A stretch of 10,833 nt of DNA from Promethearchaeota archaeon (GTDB lineage: Archaea; Asgardarchaeota; Lokiarchaeia; Sigyniarchaeales; SOKP01), in NCBI GenBank assembly GCA_048938025.1, contig JBHLMP010000077.1:1-10833 (forward strand), written 5' to 3'. Shown here in pieces: positions 1-10,833 of the stretch (the first letter of the stretch is position 1; every line of letters begins with the position of its first letter). A program made the position numbers and the translations under genes. Under the pieces are notes generated by a model that had not been told where the DNA came from, made no database searches, and worked only from the letters and a program-made list of their open reading frames with translations.

Positions 1-110
1 GAAAATAATATTTTTAAAATAAGATATCATAAAGTGTATTAGGTTAGACTTTTACATATCTAATTAGTTAATTGTTTAGCCAAAAAAAAGCAAATTTATA
101 GGGATGTGGG

Positions 111-665
111 TTGGAATACAGCTCAACTTTTAAGATAGTGATTTTTGGTGATTCAGGAACGGGTAAGACTACATTAGCTCATAGATTTTTAACTAATCTT
201 TTTAAACAAGATATTTCTATGACGTTAGGAGTCGAATTTATGTTAAAAGATATTGAGGTTGACGGGGAATTCGTTAAATTACAAATATGGGATTTTGCTG
301 GTGAAGAACGGTTTAGATTTCTTTTTCCTTCTTATCTAAAAGGAGCTAATGGTGCGATATTTATGTATGATATTACTAATTATGGGTCATTAGCTCATGT
401 AGATGATTGGTTTGCTATAGTGGAGGAAAAAATTGCTAAAAAGGAAGTAGATAATTATTTGCCAATTATCTTTGTTGGTGGTAAAGTAGATTTAATTCAC
501 TTAAAAGAAATATCAACTAAAAAAGCAATGCAAATTGCCAAATCAAAAGAAGCACACGGTTTTATAGAATGTAGCTCAAAAACAGGTGAGAATGTAAATA
601 AAATTTTTGATCTATTGGCACGGTTAATCTTTAGAAATAAAAGATCATTGGAAGCTTTCTCTTAG
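111..665 (+). CDS. Rab-like small GTPase (Ras superfamily), canonical motif order, no prenylation motif
   Basis: G1 GDSGTGKT (aa 13-20), G2 MTLGVEF, G3 IWDFAGEERF, G4 variant VGGKVD, G5 ECSSK. Rab-like KLQIWD and RFRFL..SY. TTG start with an in-frame TAG at 99-101. The C-terminus lacks Cys. Confidence 0.93.
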   Translation: MEYSSTFKIVIFGDSGTGKTTLAHRFLTNLFKQDISMTLGVEFMLKDIEVDGEFVKLQIWDFAGEERFRFLFPSYLKGANGAIFMYDITNYGSLAHVDDWFAIVEEKIAKKEVDNYLPIIFVGGKVDLIHLKEISTKKAMQIAKSKEAHGFIECSSKTGENVNKIFDLLARLIFRNKRSLEAFS

Positions 666-3191: not shown

Positions 3192-3289
3192 GGAGTTTTT
3201 TCTTTACATCTTATTTTCAAGCTTATTTGTTAACTCCTTTCTTCTCAAATTCATCAACATTTAAATTTGTATTTATGTATAATAATTTT

Positions 3290-5332
3290 ATGTCAAAATT
3301 AAAAGTAAAAAAAGTTATAATTTTCAAGCACGGTGTTTCATATTATATTCTCGAAGGAATAATAAAAGGAACAGATTCGTTCGAACTTGAATTTAAAGTT
3401 GATGAGATGAATGATGTACTAAAATCTCTTTTTGTATTAGACACTAGTGAAAAGGGGTATATATCCTCAATTTCTTATGATGCTGCTTTAGACACTTTTC
3501 AGTTATTAAAATCAATCATGTTAAATATTCCTGATGAAGACTCGTTTTCTTCACTAATAACACAAATTAAAGGAGCTAACGTCAATCTAACAATTGGAGC
3601 TAGTAAACAAATTTCAGGAACGATAATGGGCATTGAAGAATTTGAAAAATTTATTAAGGAAGAAAAATTAGTCGAGAAATTATTGATAATGTTACAGGAT
3701 GATGATCTTATTACCAAAATTCCCTTTTCAGAGATTAAATCCTTCGATATATTAAATGAAGACATTAAAAAAGATTTAAAATTTTTTCTTGATACTATTA
3801 TTGCTGGAAAGAAGAAAGATGCTAAAAAAATAAAAATTAATTGTGAGTCAGGTGGAGTAGATAATGTTGAACGAAGTATTTTTGTATCTTATATACGAGA
3901 AAGCCCTATCTGGAAAACTTCTTATCGATTAATAATGAGCAAACAACAGGCATTAGAACAAAAGTGTCTACTTTCTGGTTGGAGTCTTATTGAAAATACA
4001 ACAAATCAAGATTGGGAAGATATTGAATTATCTTTAGTAGCAGGAATGCCTGTATCTTTTAAATATGATTTTTACAGACCTATTTTTATACAACGCCCTG
4101 TTATTCAACCACCAAAAGTTTTGAGTGCTAGACCCACTGAAATAGAAGAAGGGTTAGAAATGGAAAGATTTAAAGACTATGCTATGGCAGAAGCAGCACC
4201 AAAACTTAAAGCTATGAAGAGTCGTGCAAGAATGGCAGCTCCATCTGCCCCACCAGTAGGTGCAGCTGGTGGATTTGGTGTTACAGGAGCTACTATATCT
4301 GATGATGTTTTAATGGACAAAGTTAAATCTCAGACAAAAACTCAAACCAAAGATTTAGGAGAGCTTTTTGAGTATAATATTTCAAATCCTGTTTCCATTA
4401 AAAGGAAACAGTCAGCTTTAGTTCCAATTTTAACCGAAGCAATCAAAGCTAAGCGAATATTATTGTATAATAAAGATGAGCATAATAAAAATCCTAATGC
4501 TTGTCTTGAAATAACAAACAATACAGATTTAACTCTCGAAAGGGGACCTGCTACAATAATCTATGATGATAATCTTGCTGGAGAAGCTATTATCCCCTTT
4601 TTAAATAAAGAGGATACAAGAATTTTAAATTATGCTGTTGAACAAGCTGTAATCATAATGCATGAACAAAAATCTGAAAATTTAAGTGTTCATAAAGTAA
4701 CATTCGGGAGCGGTTATTCTTATGAATACTATTATACCAATTTAATGACTGAATACAAAATAAATAACAAGACCACTGAAGAAAAGGAACTCTATCTTGA
4801 TCATCCTAAAGCCTCTGATTACAAATTTATTGAAAAGCCTGTTGAACCAGAAGAAACTCCGAACTATTGGCGCTTTAAAATAACCTTAAAACCTAAAGAT
4901 GCAATTATTTTTAAACTTAAAGAACAAAGAGAAAATTACTCAAGCAATTACTTATGGAATTGGTCCAAAGACGATATTCTCAAAAGAGTAGGGTTTTATG
5001 TCAAACATAAATTCATTGATCCAAAACTCGAACAACAACTAAAAGAAATTGCGGAATTGATTCAAAATTCAAATGATTTAAGAAACAAGAGAGAAAAATT
5101 ACATGAAGAACGAGATGTAATGACTGATGAACAGGTAAGGCTAAGAGAAAACATTGCTGTTTTAGGGACTGATAGTCAATCAATTACATTAAAAGAAAGA
5201 TATATAAAAAAATTTAATGATCAGGAAAGTAGATTTGAAGAAATTAGTAAAGAACTTAAAACATTAGATAAAAAAATAGACACTATCACTAAAGAAATTG
5301 AAGAAAAAATGCAAAATCTTTCTCCTCCTTAA
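3290..5332 (+). CDS. DUF4139-type protein with a C-terminal coiled coil (680 aa)
   Basis: N-terminal VIIFKHGVSYY, VSY...PIWKTSYRL, GWSLIENTTNQDWEDIELSLVAGMP, low-complexity MAAPSAPP linker, LGELFEY, RLRENIAVL...ERYIKKFNDQE coiled-coil tail. The start was moved from TTG 3227 to ATG 3290 (MSKLKVKKVIIFK), because the extension reads like intergenic DNA. Confidence 0.75.
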   Translation: MSKLKVKKVIIFKHGVSYYILEGIIKGTDSFELEFKVDEMNDVLKSLFVLDTSEKGYISSISYDAALDTFQLLKSIMLNIPDEDSFSSLITQIKGANVNLTIGASKQISGTIMGIEEFEKFIKEEKLVEKLLIMLQDDDLITKIPFSEIKSFDILNEDIKKDLKFFLDTIIAGKKKDAKKIKINCESGGVDNVERSIFVSYIRESPIWKTSYRLIMSKQQALEQKCLLSGWSLIENTTNQDWEDIELSLVAGMPVSFKYDFYRPIFIQRPVIQPPKVLSARPTEIEEGLEMERFKDYAMAEAAPKLKAMKSRARMAAPSAPPVGAAGGFGVTGATISDDVLMDKVKSQTKTQTKDLGELFEYNISNPVSIKRKQSALVPILTEAIKAKRILLYNKDEHNKNPNACLEITNNTDLTLERGPATIIYDDNLAGEAIIPFLNKEDTRILNYAVEQAVIIMHEQKSENLSVHKVTFGSGYSYEYYYTNLMTEYKINNKTTEEKELYLDHPKASDYKFIEKPVEPEETPNYWRFKITLKPKDAIIFKLKEQRENYSSNYLWNWSKDDILKRVGFYVKHKFIDPKLEQQLKEIAELIQNSNDLRNKREKLHEERDVMTDEQVRLRENIAVLGTDSQSITLKERYIKKFNDQESRFEEISKELKTLDKKIDTITKEIEEKMQNLSPP

Positions 5333-5367: not shown

Positions 5368-6072
5368 ATGACATATAAATCTGCATTCCAAGGATTTAGA
5401 AGCCTAATGTATCGAAGTGGCAGAGTTTATAACTTCATATCAAACAAAATCTATGATATTAAGCGAAAATATTTAACTATTTCAAAATTAATCGGTAAAA
5501 ACAAGCATGTATTGGATCTAGCCTGTGGAACGGGATTTCTTACTCGATTTATACATCCATCAAATATCTATGAAGGTTGGGATATAAATCATAAATTCTT
5601 AAAAAAATTAAAAAAGGATTGGAAGCATGGAAAATCTAACATTAAACATCTAATAGTCAAGCAGAAAGACCTTTTTAACTTTCATGAATATCCAGATGAA
5701 AAGGTAGATGTTATTGTCTTATGTGATATTTTACATCATATTAACCCTTTGCATTTTGCTTTAGTGGAAAATGCTAAAATATATGCTAGAAAAGTAATAA
5801 TCTGCGAACCTATTGCAGTAAAACCAAAAGATATTAAAGCAAACACTCGGTTTATTAGAATATTCGTGAGAATTGGTAGATTTTTTCCCGAAAAGCTTTA
5901 CAAATTGATAGATTTTCTATTTCTTGATAATGACGGAGTAAACTCTTATAAAAAACGATTAACATGGAATCACAATAACAGAAGTATTAAGACTCTATAT
6001 AGCTCCATGGGATTTGAAAAAATTTATAAAATTAAGGATAATTATATTGGTGTCTGGGATTCCAATAACTAA
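5368..6072 (+). CDS. Class I SAM-dependent methyltransferase, substrate unknown
   Basis: Motif I VLDLACGTG, acidic motif II YEGWDIN, then DVIVLCDILHHI and VIICEP. Confidence 0.88.
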   Translation: MTYKSAFQGFRSLMYRSGRVYNFISNKIYDIKRKYLTISKLIGKNKHVLDLACGTGFLTRFIHPSNIYEGWDINHKFLKKLKKDWKHGKSNIKHLIVKQKDLFNFHEYPDEKVDVIVLCDILHHINPLHFALVENAKIYARKVIICEPIAVKPKDIKANTRFIRIFVRIGRFFPEKLYKLIDFLFLDNDGVNSYKKRLTWNHNNRSIKTLYSSMGFEKIYKIKDNYIGVWDSNN

Positions 6073-6190
6073 CTTCTCTATTTTTTCAACATTCTTTTTA
6101 TTAATATAAAAGTTATTTTTTGATAATTTACTATAAGTATTCAATGAGAAGAAAAATATTGCAAATAAATTTTATCTGAAATAAAAATAA

Positions 6191-7027
6191 TTGGAGTTTA
6201 TTTCCAACTTGAAAATTACACTCAGCCTTTGGGATATTGCCGGACAAGAACGTTTTGATTTCTTTAAAACTGATTTCTATAAAGGTGTTGCTGCCATAGG
6301 ATTAGTTTTCGACTTAAGTCGTCCTGATACTTTTGATAATATTGATGTATATTTCAATGACATTAGGGATAGTTCAGGAAACATCCCTATTATCTTAGTT
6401 GGAAATAAGAATGACTTAAAAAAAGATTTGGGTGAAATAATACCTCGAGAAAAAATAATACAAAAAGTTAATCAACATCATTTACTTGAATATATTGAAA
6501 CTTCAGCTTTAGAAAACGAAAACGTTGATAATTTGTTTAATCGCCTTGCTATTGTTGCCTTATTAGATCTACAGCCTAGAATAGGAGAATTTGTTGATAT
6601 AGATCATTTTCGATTTAAAGTCCTATTAGTAGGAGATGCATCAGTAGGGAAATCTTCATTAATTAAAGCTTTTGCTAATAAAGAGTTCACAGAAGAATAC
6701 AAATTAACTGTTGGCTTAGATTTTATGACTCAAAATTTTGAAATACCCGATGAAGATTTACCAAAAGAGGTTCAAGATATAATTAAAAAGTCTGTTAAAA
6801 CTTTCAGAAAGAAATTTAAGAGACTCTATAAAAAAGAAGAAGTTCCAAAAATTAGTTCAATTAGAAAAAAAACACCAACTAAAAAGATTTTGCTTGAAAC
6901 GGCTTCAGATCAAGAAAATGATAAAATTAAAAAGAAGGCACATTTTTCCAAGAAGATTCTCCTTTTTTCTTTAACAATTGTAATAATTGCACTAATGATA
7001 ATTATTTTCTTCTTCTTTTTCCGTTAA
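6191..7027 (+). CDS. Circularly permuted Rab-like GTPase (G3-G4-G5-G1-G2) with polybasic linker and C-terminal transmembrane anchor
   Basis: G3 WDIAGQERF aa 14-22; G4 GNKND aa 71-75; G5 ETSAL aa 103-107; G1 GDASVGKSS aa 148-156; G2 YKLTVGLDF aa 170-178; Lys-rich region about aa 199-255; hydrophobic ILLFSLTIVIIALMIIIFFFFF aa 256-277. An in-frame TAA lies directly before the TTG start. Confidence 0.88.
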   Translation: MEFISNLKITLSLWDIAGQERFDFFKTDFYKGVAAIGLVFDLSRPDTFDNIDVYFNDIRDSSGNIPIILVGNKNDLKKDLGEIIPREKIIQKVNQHHLLEYIETSALENENVDNLFNRLAIVALLDLQPRIGEFVDIDHFRFKVLLVGDASVGKSSLIKAFANKEFTEEYKLTVGLDFMTQNFEIPDEDLPKEVQDIIKKSVKTFRKKFKRLYKKEEVPKISSIRKKTPTKKILLETASDQENDKIKKKAHFSKKILLFSLTIVIIALMIIIFFFFFR

Positions 7028-7149
7028 TTAATCTAAAAAGTTAATGCTTCATCTGATTCTAAGTACTCACTTATCTTTAATTTATATAATTCAAATTTTT
7101 ATAGCAAAAAAAAATAAACTATATTTTCTTTTTTATCTTAATATTTTTT

Positions 7150-7157
7150 GGTGTGAT
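7150..7157 (+). promoter_or_regulatory. Putative Shine-Dalgarno-like element
   Basis: GGTGTGAT just upstream of the ATG at 7160 resembles the archaeal GGAGGTGAT SD. Confidence 0.4.
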
Positions 7158-7159
7158 AT

Positions 7160-7372
7160 ATGAGTATTGAAGAACTTGAAGACCAAGTTGAAAAGTTATT
7201 AGAAGAAAGGGATCAACTAGAGGAAATCTGCGATACGTTGCCAAAATGTGAAGAAGATGATGCATGCGAGACTTGTGAAACATATAGGAAAATTGCACTG
7301 ATTGATGAGAAAGTAGAAGAGTTAGAAGATAAAATCGAAGAATTATTAGGAGAAGAAGAGGAAGAAGAGTAA
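7160..7372 (+). CDS. Small, highly acidic coiled-coil protein with a C-x5-C-x5-C-x2-C motif (putative metal-binding)
   Basis: 70 aa with 31 Asp/Glu and Cys24, 30, 36, 39 between two heptad-patterned helices. Purine-rich coding-like composition, an SD-like element upstream and a T-rich tract downstream. Confidence 0.8.
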   Translation: MSIEELEDQVEKLLEERDQLEEICDTLPKCEEDDACETCETYRKIALIDEKVEELEDKIEELLGEEEEEE

Positions 7373-7401
7373 AAATTTAAAAACTAAATAAAAAATCTTA
7401 C

Positions 7402-7446: not shown

Positions 7447-7577
7447 ATTATCTCATATTTACAGAAATTTGAGAATGCAAAACTAAAACTATTTTAATTG
7501 ATTAAAAGAAATTAATATAAAAAAATAACAAATTAAAATAGAAAATTAAATATTGAAATAAAAAAGTGAATGTATTG

Positions 7578-8879
7578 ATGCAAAAACCTTCTAAATTTAA
7601 AGTACAAGCCATTAATGATGAAATTTTAGTCAAGTTAAGTTTGAAAAATAGATATAATTTTGTAAACAGTAATTTAATGCCTATTTTAACGCAAGATGAG
7701 TTTGATTTTCTAAAGAAGGTCCAGCAATTTTGCTTAAAGTTTGAAAAAGATAACAATATCACCCATGGACCTGAAGAAGATATATATGATTGGATCCCCG
7801 CTTTTGGAGCAGAAGGTTATATTACCCGTCAACATGCTTTTAAATGCATTGATTTAAATTATGAAAAATATGGATTTATTGCTGACTTTTTAAGAGTACT
7901 CGCACTAGATATATTTGATCCACAATTTGCTATGAGTGGCGGAGCCACAGTAATTTGTATTAATCCAATTTATGAACATCATGAAAATTTGCCGATTAGA
8001 TTGGATGCATTGAAACAATTAGTTACTGGTAAAACACCTGGATGTTTATTGATTACAGAACCAGAAAGAGGATCTGATGCGGTCCATATGTTAACTACTT
8101 GCGAGGAACAAGATGATGGTAGTTTCATTTTAAATGGAGAAAAAATTTACAATACCAATGCACCAAAAGCAAAATGGGCTGTAGCATATGCTACTGCCGA
8201 AAAAAACAACGGAAATATGATGGCTCAATTCTTAATTAATACTGATTGGGATGGTTGGCATTGTGAGAGAGTTGGAATCCCCTGGGTTCCTAAATTATAT
8301 TTAGGAAAAGAGCATCTTGAAAATCTACGTGTTCCGAAAGAATATATTCTTGGGGGAGTTGGAAAAGGAAGAGAATATCTTTTCGAAGGCTTAGTACCTG
8401 AAAGAGTTGCAATAGCCATGAGAGGTATAAGTGAATGTTGGGGCGCCTTATCACATGCATTTATCTATTCGAATTTAAGAAAGCAATTTGACCAAGAAAT
8501 CCTAAAATTCCAAGGAGTTGGCTTTCTTTTAACAGATCTATGGGCTAAAACCACGAATTTAACTTTAGCTATGCTTAAGTATTGTGAAGTTTATGATGAA
8601 AAAATGAAAAAATATGGAGGAGATTTACCCCAGCCTATTTCTCAATCAATGGTGGCAAATGCATCTCAATTTAAATATCAGGCAGCGCTGTTATCTAAAA
8701 AAGTTTGTTATGAATGCGCTAATTTAATGGGTGGAGCTGGTCTTTGTGATAATACATTAATGCACGATTATTTAAATATCTCTAGAATACAAGAAATTAT
8801 TGGTGGCTCAAGACAGATTCAACAATATATCATGTCCCTAAATTTAAGAAGAATGTATAGATCACTTGAAACTTTCTAA
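7578..8879 (+). CDS. Acyl-CoA dehydrogenase (tandem copy 1)
   Basis: LITEPERGSDA, FILNGEKIYNTNA, RKQFDQEILKFQGV, LMGGAG, EIIGGSRQIQ. ATG 7578 is preferred to GTG 7566 because it matches the paralog starts better. Confidence 0.93.
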   Translation: MQKPSKFKVQAINDEILVKLSLKNRYNFVNSNLMPILTQDEFDFLKKVQQFCLKFEKDNNITHGPEEDIYDWIPAFGAEGYITRQHAFKCIDLNYEKYGFIADFLRVLALDIFDPQFAMSGGATVICINPIYEHHENLPIRLDALKQLVTGKTPGCLLITEPERGSDAVHMLTTCEEQDDGSFILNGEKIYNTNAPKAKWAVAYATAEKNNGNMMAQFLINTDWDGWHCERVGIPWVPKLYLGKEHLENLRVPKEYILGGVGKGREYLFEGLVPERVAIAMRGISECWGALSHAFIYSNLRKQFDQEILKFQGVGFLLTDLWAKTTNLTLAMLKYCEVYDEKMKKYGGDLPQPISQSMVANASQFKYQAALLSKKVCYECANLMGGAGLCDNTLMHDYLNISRIQEIIGGSRQIQQYIMSLNLRRMYRSLETF

Positions 8880-9097: not shown

Positions 9098-10393
9098 ATG
9101 TCTAATAAAAAATTTGAAGTTCAGGCTATAAATGATGAAATTCTTGAGAAATTGAGCCTTAAAAATAGATATAAATTTCTCTATTCCAATTTATTGGGGA
9201 TCCTTTCTACTGAAGAATTAGATTTTTTCAAAGAAGTTCAGAAATTTTGTCTTAATTATGAAAAGAATAATAATATTACTCATGGCCCACATGAAGATAT
9301 TTATAAGTGGATTCCTGATTTTGGAAAGGCGGGATATGTTTGTAGAGCTCATAAATTTGAAGAATTGGATCTTAATTATGAACCTCATGGTTTAATGGCT
9401 GAATTTCTTAAGACACTTGCAGTTGATAATTTTGATCCTCAGTTCACGATGGGTGCAGGAGCAACTATATTAGCTATTAACCCTATTCAAGCTCATCATG
9501 AAAAAATGCCAGAAAGGCTTGATGCATTAAGAGAATTAGTTACTGGTCAGGCTCCAGGATGTATATGCATAACAGAACCTGAACGAGGTTCGGATGCAGT
9601 ACATATGTTAACAACCTGCGAACAACAGGACGATGGAAGTTATTTATTAAATGGCACTAAAATTTTTAATACCAATGCCCCTAAAGCAAAATGGGCAGTA
9701 GTATATGCAACTGAAGAACAAAATAACGGGAATAAAATGGCTCAATTTTTAGTTAATACCTCCTGGGATGGGTGGTTCTGTGAAAGAGTTAATATTCCCT
9801 GGGTCCCTAAAGTTTATTTAGGTAAAGAGACTCTAACTAACCTTCGAGTTCCAAAAGAATATATCTTAGGTGGTGTAGGAAAGGGTCGTGAACACCTTTT
9901 TGAGGGTCTTGTTCCTGAAAGAATTGGAATAGGAATTAAAAGCTTATGTGAATGTTGGGGATCAATAGCTCATGCTATTATTTATGCTAATATGAGAAAA
10001 CAATTTGACCAAGAAATTTTGAAATTTCAAGGAGTAGGTTTTCTTTTAACTGATTTTTGGGCTAAAACTACAAATTTAACTCGTGCTATGGTACAATTCT
10101 GTAAATTTTATGATAATTTAGTCGAAAAGTTCGGGGGTGATGCTAATATTCCTACGAGTTTTCGTCATGGTATGGTCGCTAATGCTTCACAACTAAAATA
10201 TGAGGCAACTTCTCTTTCGGAGAAAATTTGTTATGAAGCTGGAAATCTTATGGGTGGAGCAGGTCTATGTGATAATACTTTAATGCATGATTATATAAAT
10301 ATGTCCAGAATTGGTGAAATTGTGGGAGGTTCAAGACAGATTCAACAATACATTATGAGCATGAGTCTCCGCCAACTTTTTAAAATACTATAG
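9098..10393 (+). CDS. Acyl-CoA dehydrogenase (tandem copy 2)
   Basis: CITEPERGSDA, YLLNGTKIFNTNA, RKQFDQEILKFQGV, LMGGAG, EIVGGSRQIQ. Colinear with copy 1. Confidence 0.93.
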   Translation: MSNKKFEVQAINDEILEKLSLKNRYKFLYSNLLGILSTEELDFFKEVQKFCLNYEKNNNITHGPHEDIYKWIPDFGKAGYVCRAHKFEELDLNYEPHGLMAEFLKTLAVDNFDPQFTMGAGATILAINPIQAHHEKMPERLDALRELVTGQAPGCICITEPERGSDAVHMLTTCEQQDDGSYLLNGTKIFNTNAPKAKWAVVYATEEQNNGNKMAQFLVNTSWDGWFCERVNIPWVPKVYLGKETLTNLRVPKEYILGGVGKGREHLFEGLVPERIGIGIKSLCECWGSIAHAIIYANMRKQFDQEILKFQGVGFLLTDFWAKTTNLTRAMVQFCKFYDNLVEKFGGDANIPTSFRHGMVANASQLKYEATSLSEKICYEAGNLMGGAGLCDNTLMHDYINMSRIGEIVGGSRQIQQYIMSMSLRQLFKIL

Positions 10394-10533: not shown

Positions 10534-10833
10534 ATGTCGAGCAAAAAATTTAAAGTTCAAGCCATTAATGATGAAATTCTTGATAAATTTAGTCTAAAGA
10601 ATCGATATAATTTCTTGAATAATAACCTAACTCCAATACTTTCACAAAAGGAATTTAATTTCTTACGGGAAGTCCAAAGATTTTGTTTACGCTTTGAAAA
10701 GAAAAACGATATCATTCATGGACCCGATGAAGATGTATATGATTGGATCCCCGCTTTTGGAGAACAAGGATATATCACTCGTCAACATTCATTTGATATG
10801 GTTGATGTAGTTTATGAAAACTGGGGTTTGGCA
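10534..10833 (+). CDS. Acyl-CoA dehydrogenase (tandem copy 3), 5' part only, truncated by the window end; absent from the ORF track
   Basis: ATG 10534 opens 100 uninterrupted codons: MSSKKFKVQAINDEILDKFSLKNRYNFLNNNLTPILSQKEFNFLREVQRFCLRFEKKNDIIHGPDEDVYDWIPAFGEQGYITRQHSFDMVDVVYENWGLA. This aligns with the N-termini of copies 1 and 2. Confidence 0.9.
   Translation, partial: MSSKKFKVQAINDEILDKFSLKNRYNFLNNNLTPILSQKEFNFLREVQRFCLRFEKKNDIIHGPDEDVYDWIPAFGEQGYITRQHSFDMVDVVYENWGLA

What the first reader, a model, noticed from the sequence alone, without database searches (positions are those of the whole stretch)
6191..6750. Circularly permuted Rab-like GTPase with G3-G4-G5-G1-G2 order in a probable Asgard archaeon
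Seen: the protein starts at strand beta3/G3 (DIAGQ, nt 6233) and continues through G4 (NKND, 6404), G5 (SAL, 6503) and helix alpha5. After a linker of about 15 aa it supplies beta1/G1 (GDASVGKS, 6632), G2 (T173, 6707) and beta2. Each motif occurs exactly once and all are intact, including the catalytic Gln. The two halves complement exactly, with the break in the beta2-beta3 hairpin loop. Known: prokaryotic permuted GTPases (YlqF/RbgA, YjeQ/RsgA, YqeH) use G4-G5-G1-G2-G3, while G3-G4-G5-G1-G2 is described for the rare eukaryotic cpRAS domain inside larger (e.g. VWA-containing) proteins. Inference: this is a stand-alone archaeal Rab-like permutant, either an independent origin or a relative of cpRAS. 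Switch I and switch II would sit at opposite ends of the domain.
Basis: partly seen in the sequence, partly recalled or inferred. Interest (0 to 1): 0.92.

Follow-up and report, generated by a model that had tools for sequence, protein, structure and literature searches.

The report
Permuted membrane-anchored small GTPase of Asgard archaea
This gene encodes a Ras/Rab-like GTP switch protein whose two halves are in swapped order and which carries its own membrane anchor. It belongs to a conserved family in one group of Asgard archaea, and this arrangement had been described only inside a few large eukaryotic proteins.

Summary
ORF 6191/6209..7027 (+) encodes a small GTPase with motif order G3-G4-G5-G1-G2. 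Pfam, BLASTP, a PDB profile search and an HMM of this genome's canonical GTPases all match it in two swapped, complementary pieces.

It is not a misassembly or a decayed tandem gene:
- Contigs from 4 runs of 4 studies bridge the junction.
- 70 of 400 genomes of the phylum carry it, all in two families of one order.
- The 120 best database relatives all keep the order and the G1-G4 motifs.
- dN/dS is about 0.15.

AlphaFold2 folds aa 1-210 as one domain (pTM 0.81). The model superposes on Rab/Rho over β3-α5, and on solved YlqF/YqeH/YjeQ permuted GTPases across the new α5-β1 junction (Z 10-12.4).

Behind β2 come a conserved acidic-Pro motif, a polybasic helix and, in this protein, a C-terminal transmembrane helix. 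Relatives carry longer membrane modules. The 28 archaeal members form one clade. Their G2 motif is Rab-like, not the Ras "TIE" of eukaryotic cpRAS, so an independent origin is likely.

I read it as a membrane-tethered GTP switch whose anchor leaves from the switch I/β2 end. No paper in the held library describes it.

The parts
6188..6190 (+). In-frame TAA stop directly upstream of the ORF. No room for an upstream G1-G2 in this frame.
   Evidence: Read from the sequence. In 31 of 31 rows examined an in-frame stop lies 3-21 codons before the TLSLWD strand.
6193..6196 (+). GGAG, a Shine-Dalgarno-like site 12 nt before TTG 6209.
   Evidence: Sequence. GGAG/GAGG-type words at a similar distance in many orthologous loci (printed upstream regions); not counted.
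6209..7027 (+). Gene for the circularly permuted small GTPase (272 aa from TTG 6209; 278 aa if TTG 6191 is used), stop codon included.
   Evidence: A start at -3/-4 from the β3 motif in all 31 rows (13 ATG, 18 TTG). dN/dS 0.14-0.16 against the 4 closest orthologs.
6212..6235 (+). Strand β3 (aa 2-9), the new N-terminus.
   Evidence: DSSP of the AF2 model. Aligns to Rab/Rho β3.
6233..6247 (+). G3 / switch II motif DIAGQ with the catalytic Gln.
   Evidence: D9, G12, Q13 invariant in 81 sequences. DxxGQ in 120 of 120.
6404..6415 (+). G4 motif NKND (guanine specificity).
   Evidence: N66, K67, D69 invariant. 120 of 120.
6503..6511 (+). G5 motif SAL.
   Evidence: T98 and S99 invariant, A100 nearly invariant. 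115 of 120 by my pattern.
6524..6565 (+). Helix α5 (aa 106-119).
6566..6604 (+). New linker α5 to β1 (aa 120-132, DLQPRIGEFVDID), conserved across the family.
   Evidence: D120, R124, G126 invariant, L125 and E127 nearly so. Solved YlqF/YqeH/YjeQ-type permuted GTPases superpose on the model across this junction (model 13..177, Z 10-12.4).
6605..6655 (+). Strand β1 and G1 P-loop GDASVGKS (6632-6655).
   Evidence: G142, V146, G147, K148, S149 invariant. 120 of 120.
6707..6709 (+). G2 / switch I threonine within YKLTVGLDF (Rab-type, not the Ras 'TIE').
   Evidence: Y164, K165, T167 invariant.
6722..6742 (+). Strand β2 (aa 172-178), last element of the G domain.
6743..6838 (+). Conserved acidic-Pro motif (PDEDLPKE) and polybasic helix (aa 186-209).
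   Evidence: P185 invariant, E187 nearly so. Helix with pLDDT 73-82. 12 K/R against 7 D/E in aa 179-215.
6839..6937 (+). Lys-rich, low-confidence spacer (aa 211-243).
   Evidence: pLDDT under 50 for aa 210-239 and 241-245. Poorly conserved.
6938..7024 (+). C-terminal hydrophobic helix (aa 244-272), a predicted tail anchor.
   Evidence: Kyte-Doolittle 19-residue mean up to 3.24. AF2 helix 232-271. Present in 28 of the 120 closest relatives.

Best explanation
ORF 6209..7027 encodes a functional, circularly permuted small GTPase of the Ras superfamily. Its nearest kin are the Asgard Ras-like proteins with Rab-type motifs.

The chain starts at strand β3/switch II and runs through G4, G5 and helix α5. 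A conserved 13-residue linker returns it to β1/P-loop, α1, switch I and β2, so that one complete G domain forms. From the end of β2 the chain continues into a conserved acidic-Pro motif, a polybasic helix, a spacer and a C-terminal transmembrane helix.

Shown here:
- the permuted order;
- its conservation under purifying selection in one order of Asgard archaea;
- intact GTP-binding and catalytic motifs;
- a confident single-domain prediction.

Inferred:
- It binds and hydrolyses GTP as a molecular switch that sits on a membrane.
- The β2-β3 hairpin tip, the N-terminus and the end of α5 all lie on the face of a Ras-like domain opposite the nucleotide (textbook fold geometry, recalled). The permutation would therefore keep the domain's orientation to the membrane but move the tether from α5 to the strand that follows switch I.
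- Nucleotide-dependent movement of switch I and the interswitch could then act directly on the basic helix and anchor, much as the interswitch toggle of Arf controls its amphipathic helix.
- The family most likely arose once, from a tandem pair or fusion of canonical genes that lost its first G1-G2 and its last G3-G5, independently of eukaryotic cpRAS.
For: Order:
- Two swapped, complementary matches.
- In one search, 29 of 29 permuted rows gave two swapped hits and 49 of 49 canonical rows gave one.

Real DNA:
- Contigs X1 rec 3 (6265-6727, 0 differences), X4 rec 13 (6394-6729), X5 rec 17 (5995-6727) and X7 rec 29 (6462-6727) bridge 6570-6610 in 4 runs of 4 studies.

Conservation:
- 462 relatives at E<=1e-3 among 2010 candidates; the 120 listed all have E<=1.1e-90.
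- G3 lies before G1 in 120 of 120. G1, G2, G3 and G4 patterns are present in 120 of 120, G5 in 115 of 120.
- 47 invariant columns in 81 sequences include every nucleotide-binding residue.
- dN/dS is 0.14-0.16 at dS about 0.5 against the 4 closest orthologs.
- An in-frame stop lies 3-21 codons before β3 in 31 of 31 rows.

Genomes:
- 66 of 400 at E<=1e-45, plus 4 more divergent ones checked by HMM.
- All are in families f1 and f3 of one order. One copy in the window's own genome.

Fold:
- aa 1-210 gives pLDDT 81.4 and pTM 0.81, with the low-confidence stretches around switch II (aa 11-20, block mean pLDDT 59) and switch I (aa 162-169, pLDDT under 50).
- Canonical Rho/Rab chains superpose on model 1..119-124 (Z 12-13.3, rmsd 1.5-2.1).
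- Solved permuted GTPases superpose on model 12/13..177: 8pv1_Cd Z 12.4 with 148 aligned, 3jct_m Z 11.0, YqeH 3h2y Z 11.0, YlqF 1puj Z 10.5, YjeQ 2yv5 Z 10.4. So β1-α1-β2 sits in the canonical place relative to β4-β6.

Membrane part:
- Hydrophobic aa 244-272 and a basic helix.
- Long relatives have membrane helices at their C-termini.

Single origin:
- 28 archaeal permuted rows form one clade (SH-aLRT 95) nested among canonical GTPases.

Source material for the permutation:
- Tandem canonical pairs 21 nt apart in this genome (C16) and in G128. G204:C98 gave a like read-through match that was not inspected.
- Fused di-GTPases in the protein library.
Against: - No biochemical data: GTP binding, hydrolysis and membrane insertion are all inferred.
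- The structures are predictions. The full-length model is weak (pLDDT 67.3, pTM 0.56).
- The aligners used are sequential, so no single superposition covers the whole domain.
- A domain-swapped dimer is not excluded.
- 92 of the 120 closest relatives lack the transmembrane helix, so anchoring by a TM helix is not a family-wide trait.
- A divergent subgroup (genus g13) has DPPG[DE] in place of DxxGQ, so hydrolysis may not be universal.
- The sister group is unresolved, and the tandem pair on C16 is near but not sister in the tree.
- The duplication-and-truncation route is a model, not a finding.
Confidence: 0.87

Rival explanations
1. Artefact or relic: a misassembled contig, or the decayed remnant of a tandem di-GTPase (pseudogene) that only looks permuted.
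For: Tandem canonical GTPase genes exist in this genome. Read through their stop codon, they mimic the order (G000:C16, E 3e-33 with 1 TAA). Multi-GTPase fusions are common in the library.
Against: - Four runs of four studies bridge the junction.
- Identical boundaries in 70 genomes.
- Stops just upstream of β3 in 31 of 31 rows.
- A conserved linker and a conserved post-β2 motif.
- dN/dS about 0.15.
- A confident single-domain prediction.
Confidence: 0.02
2. It is a true relative of the eukaryotic cpRAS domain (same permutation event), either its Asgard ancestor or a transfer between eukaryotes and archaea.
For: - Same motif order and the same break point between β2 and β3 as described for cpRAS (PMC2430557, part 1 of the text read).
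- A 2026 paper lists CPRas as a possible LECA gene (PMC13393502, passages).
- Asgard archaea are the closest prokaryotic kin of eukaryotes.
Against: - cpRAS is described as a typical RAS-family domain with the 'TIE' G2 motif, sitting inside VWA or COG2373-like proteins.
- Here G2 is YKLTVGLDF. The best solved relatives by profile are Rab11/Rab7. The domain is N-terminal and followed by a basic helix and membrane segments, and no VWA was found.
- The family was found only in two families of one order, and in 0 of 250 genomes of the other families sampled.
- Circular permutation at this loop has evidently happened more than once: P0204 has the order but lies apart in the tree.
Confidence: 0.07
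3. The two halves do not complement within one chain but between chains: an obligate domain-swapped dimer or polymer in which β1-α1-β2 of one protomer completes β3-α5 of the next.
For: The free β2 and β3 ends and a 13-residue linker could permit swapping. Nothing here measures the oligomeric state.
Against: The monomer is predicted with pTM 0.81. Its two blocks sit as in solved single-chain permuted GTPases. The linker is long enough, because α5's end and β1's start are neighbours in the fold (recalled geometry).
Confidence: 0.08
4. A pseudo-GTPase: the fold is kept as a scaffold or membrane adaptor, without nucleotide cycling.
For: The genus g13 members have lost the catalytic Gln (DPPG[DE]). 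Many small GTPase-like proteins are non-catalytic (general knowledge).
Against: In the window's protein and the 120 closest relatives all of G1-G4 are intact, including Lys/Ser of the P-loop, Thr of switch I, Gln of switch II and NKxD. This is hard to explain without nucleotide binding.
Confidence: 0.04

Closest known systems
cpRAS domain of eukaryotic CPRas proteins (Elias and Novotny 2008, PMC2430557)
   Same: Motif order G3-G4-G5-G1-G2. The break is in the β2-β3 turn and α5 is joined directly to β1. All GTPase motifs are retained.
   Different: - cpRAS is a RAS-family domain ('TIE' G2) embedded in large VWA- or COG2373-type proteins, and was called eukaryote-specific.
- This one is archaeal, has a Rab-type G2 (TVGLDF), lies at the N-terminus of the protein and is followed by a basic helix and a membrane anchor.
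- Kinship was not tested in a tree.
YRG / YlqF(RbgA)-YqeH-YjeQ(RsgA) circularly permuted GTPases
   Same: A permuted P-loop GTPase with α5 joined to β1. The model superposes on the solved structures over 120-148 residues across that junction (Z 9-12.4).
   Different: - Their order is G4-G5-G1-G2-G3, cut between β3 and α2. Here G3 stays with G4-G5 and the cut is one element earlier.
- They are ribosome-assembly factors with RNA-binding domains.
- Sequence match is negligible (YqeH model 23.6 bits against a cut-off of 297.4).
Canonical Asgard Ras-like (RasL / 'Rab-like') small GTPases, e.g. window 111..665 and the tandem pair on contig C16
   Same: The same superfamily and motif set, with 29-45% identity over the pieces. 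The family nests among them in the tree.
   Different: They have the canonical order, are about 170-190 aa long, and have no C-terminal extension. Archaeal Rab-like proteins were reported to lack any membrane-association signal (PMC4915359, passages). This family has a polybasic helix and, in part of its members, transmembrane helices.
Arf family membrane switches (what it may work like; comparison from recalled textbook knowledge)
   Same: A helix next to the interswitch hairpin could couple nucleotide state to membrane contact.
   Different: Arf uses an N-terminal amphipathic helix and keeps the canonical order. No toggle has been shown here, and the sequences are not Arf-like beyond the shared fold.

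Membership tests
Ras superfamily small GTPase (Pfam PF00071, TIGR00231) | G1 P-loop GxxxxGK[ST] | tested here: met
   GDASVGKS at 6632-6655. Invariant G/GKS in 81 sequences. 120 of 120.
Ras superfamily small GTPase (Pfam PF00071, TIGR00231) | G2 Thr, G3 DxxGQ, G4 NKxD, G5 SA[KL] | tested here: met
   T at 6707, DIAGQ at 6233, NKND at 6404, SAL at 6503. Conserved (G5 pattern in 115 of 120).
Ras superfamily small GTPase (Pfam PF00071, TIGR00231) | Score above the curated cut-off | tested here: met
   PF00071 132.6 bits against 21.6. TIGR00231 66.6 bits against 42.5. Both in 2 stretches.
Ras superfamily small GTPase (Pfam PF00071, TIGR00231) | Canonical order G1-G2-G3-G4-G5 | tested here: not met
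   The order is G3-G4-G5-G1-G2. It is a permuted variant of the family.
Ras superfamily small GTPase (Pfam PF00071, TIGR00231) | One compact G-domain fold | tested here: met
   By prediction only: pTM 0.81. Overlapping superpositions cover model 1..124 (Rab/Rho) and 12/13..177 (YlqF-type).
Ras superfamily small GTPase (Pfam PF00071, TIGR00231) | GTP/GDP binding and hydrolysis | not testable with these tools
   Needs purified protein.
cpRAS (Elias and Novotny 2008) | Order G3-G4-G5-G1-G2 with the cut between β2 and β3 | tested here: met
cpRAS (Elias and Novotny 2008) | RAS-family signature, e.g. the 'TIE' G2 motif (as stated in the paper) | tested here: not met
   G2 is KLTVGLDF. YKLT is conserved. 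The best solved relatives by profile are Rab11/Rab7.
cpRAS (Elias and Novotny 2008) | Embedded in large proteins with a VWA domain or a COG2373-like region | tested here: not met
   No such Pfam domain in the window protein or in the long forms P0133, P0134, P0141. The domain is N-terminal.
cpRAS (Elias and Novotny 2008) | Groups with cpRAS domains in a phylogeny | not tested
   No cpRAS sequence could be obtained. The two VWA+Ras proteins found (P0292, P0300) have the canonical order.
YRG / YlqF-type permuted GTPases | Order G4-G5-G1-G2-G3 | tested here: not met
   G3 precedes G4 here.
YRG / YlqF-type permuted GTPases | Match to curated family models | tested here: not met
   TIGR03597 YqeH 23.6 bits against a cut-off of 297.4.
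Rab family proper | C-terminal prenylation cysteines | tested here: not met
   The protein ends in a hydrophobic helix ...IIFFFFFR with no Cys.
Rab family proper | Specific sister relation to eukaryotic Rabs | tested here: inconclusive
   The sister of the clade is unresolved, with forks under 80, and the taxonomy of the reference rows is unknown. A published survey found no Asgard sequences specifically sister to Rabs (bioRxiv 10.1101/2024.02.28.582541, passages).
Tail-anchored membrane protein | A single hydrophobic helix within about 30 residues of the C-terminus and no signal peptide | tested here: met
   aa 244-272, hydropathy mean up to 3.24. AF2 helix 232-271. The N-terminus is strand β3 of the G domain.
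Tail-anchored membrane protein | Actual insertion in a membrane | not testable with these tools
   Needs fractionation or imaging.

The most novel reading that the evidence does not exclude
This would be a second, independent and prokaryotic invention of the G3-G4-G5-G1-G2 permutation, which an earlier survey had argued should not fold. Selection would have favoured it because it moves the membrane tether from helix α5 to the strand behind switch I. The GTP/GDP state of a Ras/Rab-type domain would then be transmitted mechanically to a polybasic helix and transmembrane anchor, giving an Arf-like membrane switch built on a different scaffold in Asgard archaea.
Probability: 0.3. Interest if true: 0.8.

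Novelty: new variant of a known kind. Interest (0 to 1): 0.68.

Why it matters
- The G3-G4-G5-G1-G2 arrangement was known only from the eukaryotic cpRAS domain, which its describers took to be a eukaryote-specific derivative (PMC2430557). A conserved archaeal family shows that the β2-β3 hairpin of a Ras-like domain can be opened in nature more than once.
- The family supplies small, single-domain proteins (214-283 aa) that are far easier to express and crystallise than CPRas proteins.
- It bears on an open question in eukaryogenesis: how the many Asgard small GTPases meet membranes. Archaeal Rab-like proteins were reported to lack any membrane-association signal (PMC4915359). Here a polybasic helix and transmembrane segments are wired to the switch I end of the domain.
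- It is a natural test case for how far switch mechanics depend on chain connectivity.

Tried and rejected
- **Foldseek against PDB with the full-length model.** Only the β3-α5 block aligned (92-132 columns). The aligner is sequential, so it could not test the position of the second block. It was replaced by the VIA-align search.

- **Complex prediction.** I tested the G domain (aa 1-210) against the neighbouring acidic Cys4 protein (7160..7372). The result was no support (score 0.00, mark 0.32). This is no evidence either way.

- **Co-distribution of that neighbour.** It is present in 114 of 134 genomes of family f1. These include genera that largely lack the GTPase (g12: 37 of 42 against 1 of 42). 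It is absent from g2 (0 of 5), which has the GTPase (5 of 5). I therefore dropped it as an obligate partner.

- **Expression.** No RNA holder was listed for 5900-7400.

- **Read laying joints.** Joints such as 6408>6644 have low depth (5-8), come from single contigs and were found at 90% likeness. I take them for paralogs or other organisms, not variants of this gene.

- **Search for fused or cpRAS-like long forms.** 102 proteins of 477-2000 aa were returned, and I screened the 100 new ids among them, P0272-P0371. None had the permuted order, apart from one N-terminally cut animal multi-GTPase (P0281). The VWA+Ras proteins P0292 and P0300 have the canonical order.

- **ESM Atlas.** Only generic small-GTPase clusters were returned. 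No named family was found for the C-terminal module of the long forms.

- **NCBIfam and Pfam.** Both gave nothing for the 701-aa upstream protein.

- **Literature.** The searches were 'circularly permuted'+GTPase+Asgard, cpRAS (9), Asgard+'small GTPases'+permut (10), permuted+Lokiarchae+'Ras superfamily' (31), 'G3-G4-G5-G1-G2' (50), and Asgard+'Ras superfamily'+GTPases+transmembrane (51).
  - They found no description of an archaeal permuted Ras-like GTPase.
  - The word 'permut' does not occur in the main text of the Asgard GTPase survey 10.1101/2024.02.28.582541 or of PMC4915359.
The library also lacks most subscription journals.
Full report
**1. The observation**

The window is a whole 10,833-base contig (C31) of a 3.52-Mb, 88-contig genome that is 96.7% complete.

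ORF 6191..7027 (+) translates to 278 aa.

Four independent comparisons give two complementary matches in swapped order.
- Pfam Ras: E 1.2e-38, 2 stretches, aa 6-120 against profile 45-157 of 162.
- BLASTP to the canonical GTPase at 111..665 of the same window: aa 9-120 to 55-170, and aa 142-196 to 7-61.
- A profile of 81 family members against PDB sequences: all 60 listed chains show 2 stretches. For Rab11 3bfk_A, profile 133-186 matches residues 5-58 and profile 5-113 matches residues 59-165.
- An HMM that I built from 34 canonical small GTPases of this genome. These were the 34 of 51 phmmer hits with E<1e-15 and 150-210 aa. All 29 permuted rows hit HMM 46-56 through 161-172 first and HMM 3-5 through 50-62 second. 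All 49 canonical comparison rows hit once. Those 49 were the members of P0164-P0271 that are 150-260 aa long, out of 108.

The break therefore lies at HMM position 54/55, which is the β2-β3 turn.

**2. The start codon**

An in-frame TAA sits at 6188-6190. I examined the window plus 30 orthologous loci. L016 and L034 did not match my search pattern and are missing from this count.
- An in-frame stop lies 3-21 codons before the TLSLWD strand in all 31 rows.
- A start codon lies 3 or 4 codons before it in all 31 rows (13 ATG, 18 TTG).

The start in this window is thus most likely TTG 6209 (MKITLSLWD), with GGAG 12 nt upstream. Nowhere is there room for an upstream G1-G2 in frame.

**3. Not an artefact**

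Contigs of four public runs from four studies bridge the junction at 6570-6610 with 0-5 differences:
- X1 record 3, 6265-6727;
- X4 record 13, 6394-6729;
- X5 record 17, 5995-6727;
- X7 record 29, 6462-6727.

X1 may be the source sample.

The protein database holds 462 relatives at E<=1e-3 among 2010 candidates. The 120 listed all have E<=1.1e-90 and are 197-283 aa long.
- In all 120, G3 lies before G1.
- The G1, G2, G3 and G4 patterns are present in 120 of 120, and my G5 pattern in 115 of 120.
- In an alignment of 81 sequences, 47 columns are invariant. They include D9, G12, Q13, N66, K67, D69, S99, G142, G147, K148, S149 and T167.

Against the four closest orthologs, dN/dS is 0.14-0.16 at dS about 0.5. 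Eight further pairs, chosen from the 29 same-genus loci, gave 0.06-0.12 but at saturated dS.

**4. Distribution**

I searched 400 genomes of the phylum, window genome included.
- 66 have a match at E<=1e-45: the window's own genome, 63 of 134 others in its family f1, and 2 of 14 in family f3 of the same order.
- A profile search at E<=1e-34 added four more: one f3 genome (G131) and three of genus g13 (G274, G276, G278). I confirmed by HMM that these carry the permuted order at the N-terminus of their open frames.
- The total is 70 of 400.
- None of the 250 genomes of the other families gave a permuted match. The single hit there (G128) is a tandem pair of canonical genes.

The tool scored only the best 3-6 candidates per genome, so divergent copies could be missed.

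Within f1 the family is patchy: g1 50 of 53, g2 5 of 5, g11 4 of 10, g12 1 of 42.

Sources label the close relatives Promethearchaeota, Lokiarchaeota, Thor-, Odin-, Hod- and Hermodarchaeota. These labels cannot all be right. P0018 ('Lokiarchaeota') and P0041 ('Odinarchaeota') are near neighbours in the tree.

A scan of 1.84 billion cluster representatives found 12 full-length 50%-identity clusters with a single N-terminal permuted match (P0122, P0123, P0126, P0128, P0129, P0132-P0135, P0137, P0141, P0142) plus fragments.

**5. Fold**

AlphaFold2 on the full 272 aa gave pLDDT 67.3 and pTM 0.56. The score is lowered by a disordered spacer.

On aa 1-210 with 60 aligned sequences it gave pLDDT 81.4 and pTM 0.81. 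The elements, in order, are:
- β3 (2-9), α2 (14-24), β4 (27-35), α3 (45-56), β5 (61-66), α4 (80-89), β6 (94-97), α5 (106-119);
- linker;
- β1 (133-141), α1 (147-157), β2 (172-178);
- a further helix (186-209).

Confidence is lowest around the two switch regions: block mean pLDDT 59 for aa 11-20, and pLDDT under 50 for aa 162-169.

Structure aligners keep chain order, so I used two overlapping comparisons from one search of 48,161 PDB representatives.
- Canonical Rho/Rab chains superpose on model 1..119-124 (Z 12-13.3, rmsd 1.5-2.1).
- Solved permuted GTPases of the other type (G4-G5-G1-G2-G3) share the α5-β1 connection. They superpose on model 12/13..177: 8pv1_Cd Z 12.4 with 148 aligned, 3jct_m Z 11.0 with 147, YqeH 3h2y Z 11.0, YlqF 1puj Z 10.5 with 142, YjeQ 2yv5 Z 10.4, RsgA 6h4d Z 10.3.

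So in the model the β1-α1-β2 block sits where a G domain needs it. This is a prediction, not a structure.

**6. What follows the G domain**

Behind β2 comes a conserved [DE]x[LI]PxE motif (P185 invariant). A helix follows, and aa 179-215 hold 12 Lys/Arg against 7 Asp/Glu. Then come a Lys-rich spacer and a very hydrophobic C-terminal helix at aa 244-272.

Of the 120 closest relatives, 28 (268-283 aa) have such a terminal helix. The other 92 (197-243 aa) end after the basic helix.

A second subclade has long forms (316-755 aa; L034 707 aa, L035 439 aa). In these the same N-terminal domain is followed by a low-complexity, often Pro-rich stretch. In most of them a conserved module of about 130 aa and hydrophobic helices then follow at the C-terminus. 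Pfam and the Atlas give no name for that module.

The three g13 members (473-531 aa open frames) have DPPG[DE] in place of DxxGQ.

**7. Evolution**

In a script I re-ordered the blocks of the permuted proteins and built a quick maximum-likelihood tree of 112 rows: 29 permuted, 49 library representatives and 34 canonical proteins of this genome.
- The 28 archaeal permuted rows form one clade (SH-aLRT 95).
- That clade splits into a 19-row group (99) holding the window's protein and a 9-row group (98) of long forms.
- The sister group is unresolved.
- P0204, a 243-aa protein of unknown origin that has the same order and resembles Rab7 to my eye, lies elsewhere.

Raw material for the standard duplication-and-truncation route to circular permutation is at hand.
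- This genome has two canonical GTPase genes 21 nt apart on contig C16 (177 and 170 aa). They share 40-41% identity with the query over the pieces.
- A like pair occurs in G128. G204:C98 gave a like read-through match that I did not inspect.
- Fused di-GTPases occur in the library (P0148, P0150).

In the tree the C16 pair is near but not sister.

**8. Relation to cpRAS**

I read part 1 of the text and further passages of PMC2430557. cpRAS has the same order and break point. [quoted passage not shown]

Here G2 is YKLTVGLDF, the architecture differs, and the distribution is one archaeal order. I could not obtain cpRAS sequences, so kinship is untested by phylogeny. I put it at 7%.

**9. Mechanism**

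Shown:
- intact nucleotide-binding and catalytic residues under purifying selection;
- a predicted complete G domain;
- a basic helix and membrane segments attached behind β2.

Inferred:
- It is a GTP switch on a membrane.
- In Ras-like folds the N-terminus, the end of α5 and the β2-β3 tip lie on the face away from the nucleotide (recalled geometry). Opening the hairpin therefore keeps the domain's orientation but moves the tether to the strand that follows switch I.
- Nucleotide-driven movements of switch I and the interswitch could then reach the basic helix and anchor directly.

The neighbours give no firm partner. In the 31 loci searched, the 701-aa protein was found in 22, the methyltransferase in 24 and the acidic Cys4 protein in 28. 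The Cys4 protein does not share the GTPase's distribution, and the complex prediction gave no support (no evidence either way).

**10. Novelty and limits**

Six full-text searches found no description of an archaeal permuted Ras-like GTPase. Only the cpRAS paper holds the term G3-G4-G5-G1-G2.

The main text of the broadest Asgard GTPase survey does not contain 'permut'.

An earlier analysis stated that archaeal Rab-like proteins lack any membrane-association signal (PMC4915359, passages). This family is a counter-example on sequence grounds.

Limits:
- Everything functional is inferred.
- The tree is a quick search.
- Taxon names are codes or unreliable labels.

Noticed in passing
window 111..665 (+): A canonical-order Ras/Rab-like small GTPase of 184 aa (Pfam Ras E 1.9e-44, one stretch 8-173) on the same contig. 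The genome holds about 50 small-GTPase ORFs (51 phmmer hits).
   Followed up: partly
window 7160..7372 (+): A 70-aa very acidic protein: two helices around an invariant C-x5-C-x5-C-x2-C cluster, and a poly-Glu tail. It lies near the GTPase gene in 28 of 31 loci. It is single-copy in 114 of 134 genomes of the family, including genera without the GTPase. No Pfam or NCBIfam family above cut-off.
   Followed up: partly
window 3227..5332 (+): A 701-aa protein with no Pfam or NCBIfam family. It is conserved upstream of the methyltransferase-GTPase pair in 22 of 31 loci, with 75-93% identity over its last 200-245 residues.
   Followed up: no
window 7566..8879, 9098..10393, 10534..10833 (+): Three tandem paralogs of an acyl-CoA dehydrogenase-like protein (Pfam Acyl-CoA_dh_1 and _M on the first), with near-identical N-termini. 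The third runs off the contig.
   Followed up: no
G000:C16:42326-43390 (locus L036 827..1894): Two canonical Rab-like genes in tandem (177 and 170 aa, 21 nt apart). Read through the stop, they mimic the permuted order (E 3e-33). A similar pair was confirmed in G128. G204:C98 gave a like read-through match that was not inspected. This is a plausible kind of precursor for the permutation.
   Followed up: partly
L034 64..2187; L035 1912..3231; proteins P0128, P0133, P0134, P0141, P0142: Long forms: the permuted G domain is followed by a Pro-rich low-complexity region, a conserved module of about 130 aa (motifs such as KQMNP..NKLSV and PGC..VP) and C-terminal hydrophobic helices. No named family. 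Atlas structure neighbours are unnamed archaeal and bacterial proteins.
   Followed up: partly
L037, L038, L039 (genomes G274, G278, G276, genus g13): Divergent permuted members (473-531 aa open frames) with DPPG[DE] instead of DxxGQ, that is, without the catalytic glutamine.
   Followed up: partly
protein P0204 (243 aa, library representative, origin unknown): A protein that resembles Rab7 to my eye, with the same G3-G4-G5-G1-G2 order (Pfam Ras in 2 stretches). It lies far from the archaeal clade in the tree. It is either an independent permutation or a gene-model artefact across tandem genes.
   Followed up: partly
L014 2221..3216 (-), L027 457..1452 (+): In the short-form loci inspected (L014, L027) a 331-aa gene on the opposite strand lies between the GTPase gene and the acidic Cys4 gene. 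To my eye it carries HD-type His/Asp motifs; no family search was run on it. It is absent at that place in the window.
   Followed up: no
proteins: Source labels for close relatives span six candidate Asgard phyla, yet the genome search finds the family in one order only. A 'Lokiarchaeota' and an 'Odinarchaeota' protein are near neighbours in the tree. The labels look unreliable.
   Followed up: no
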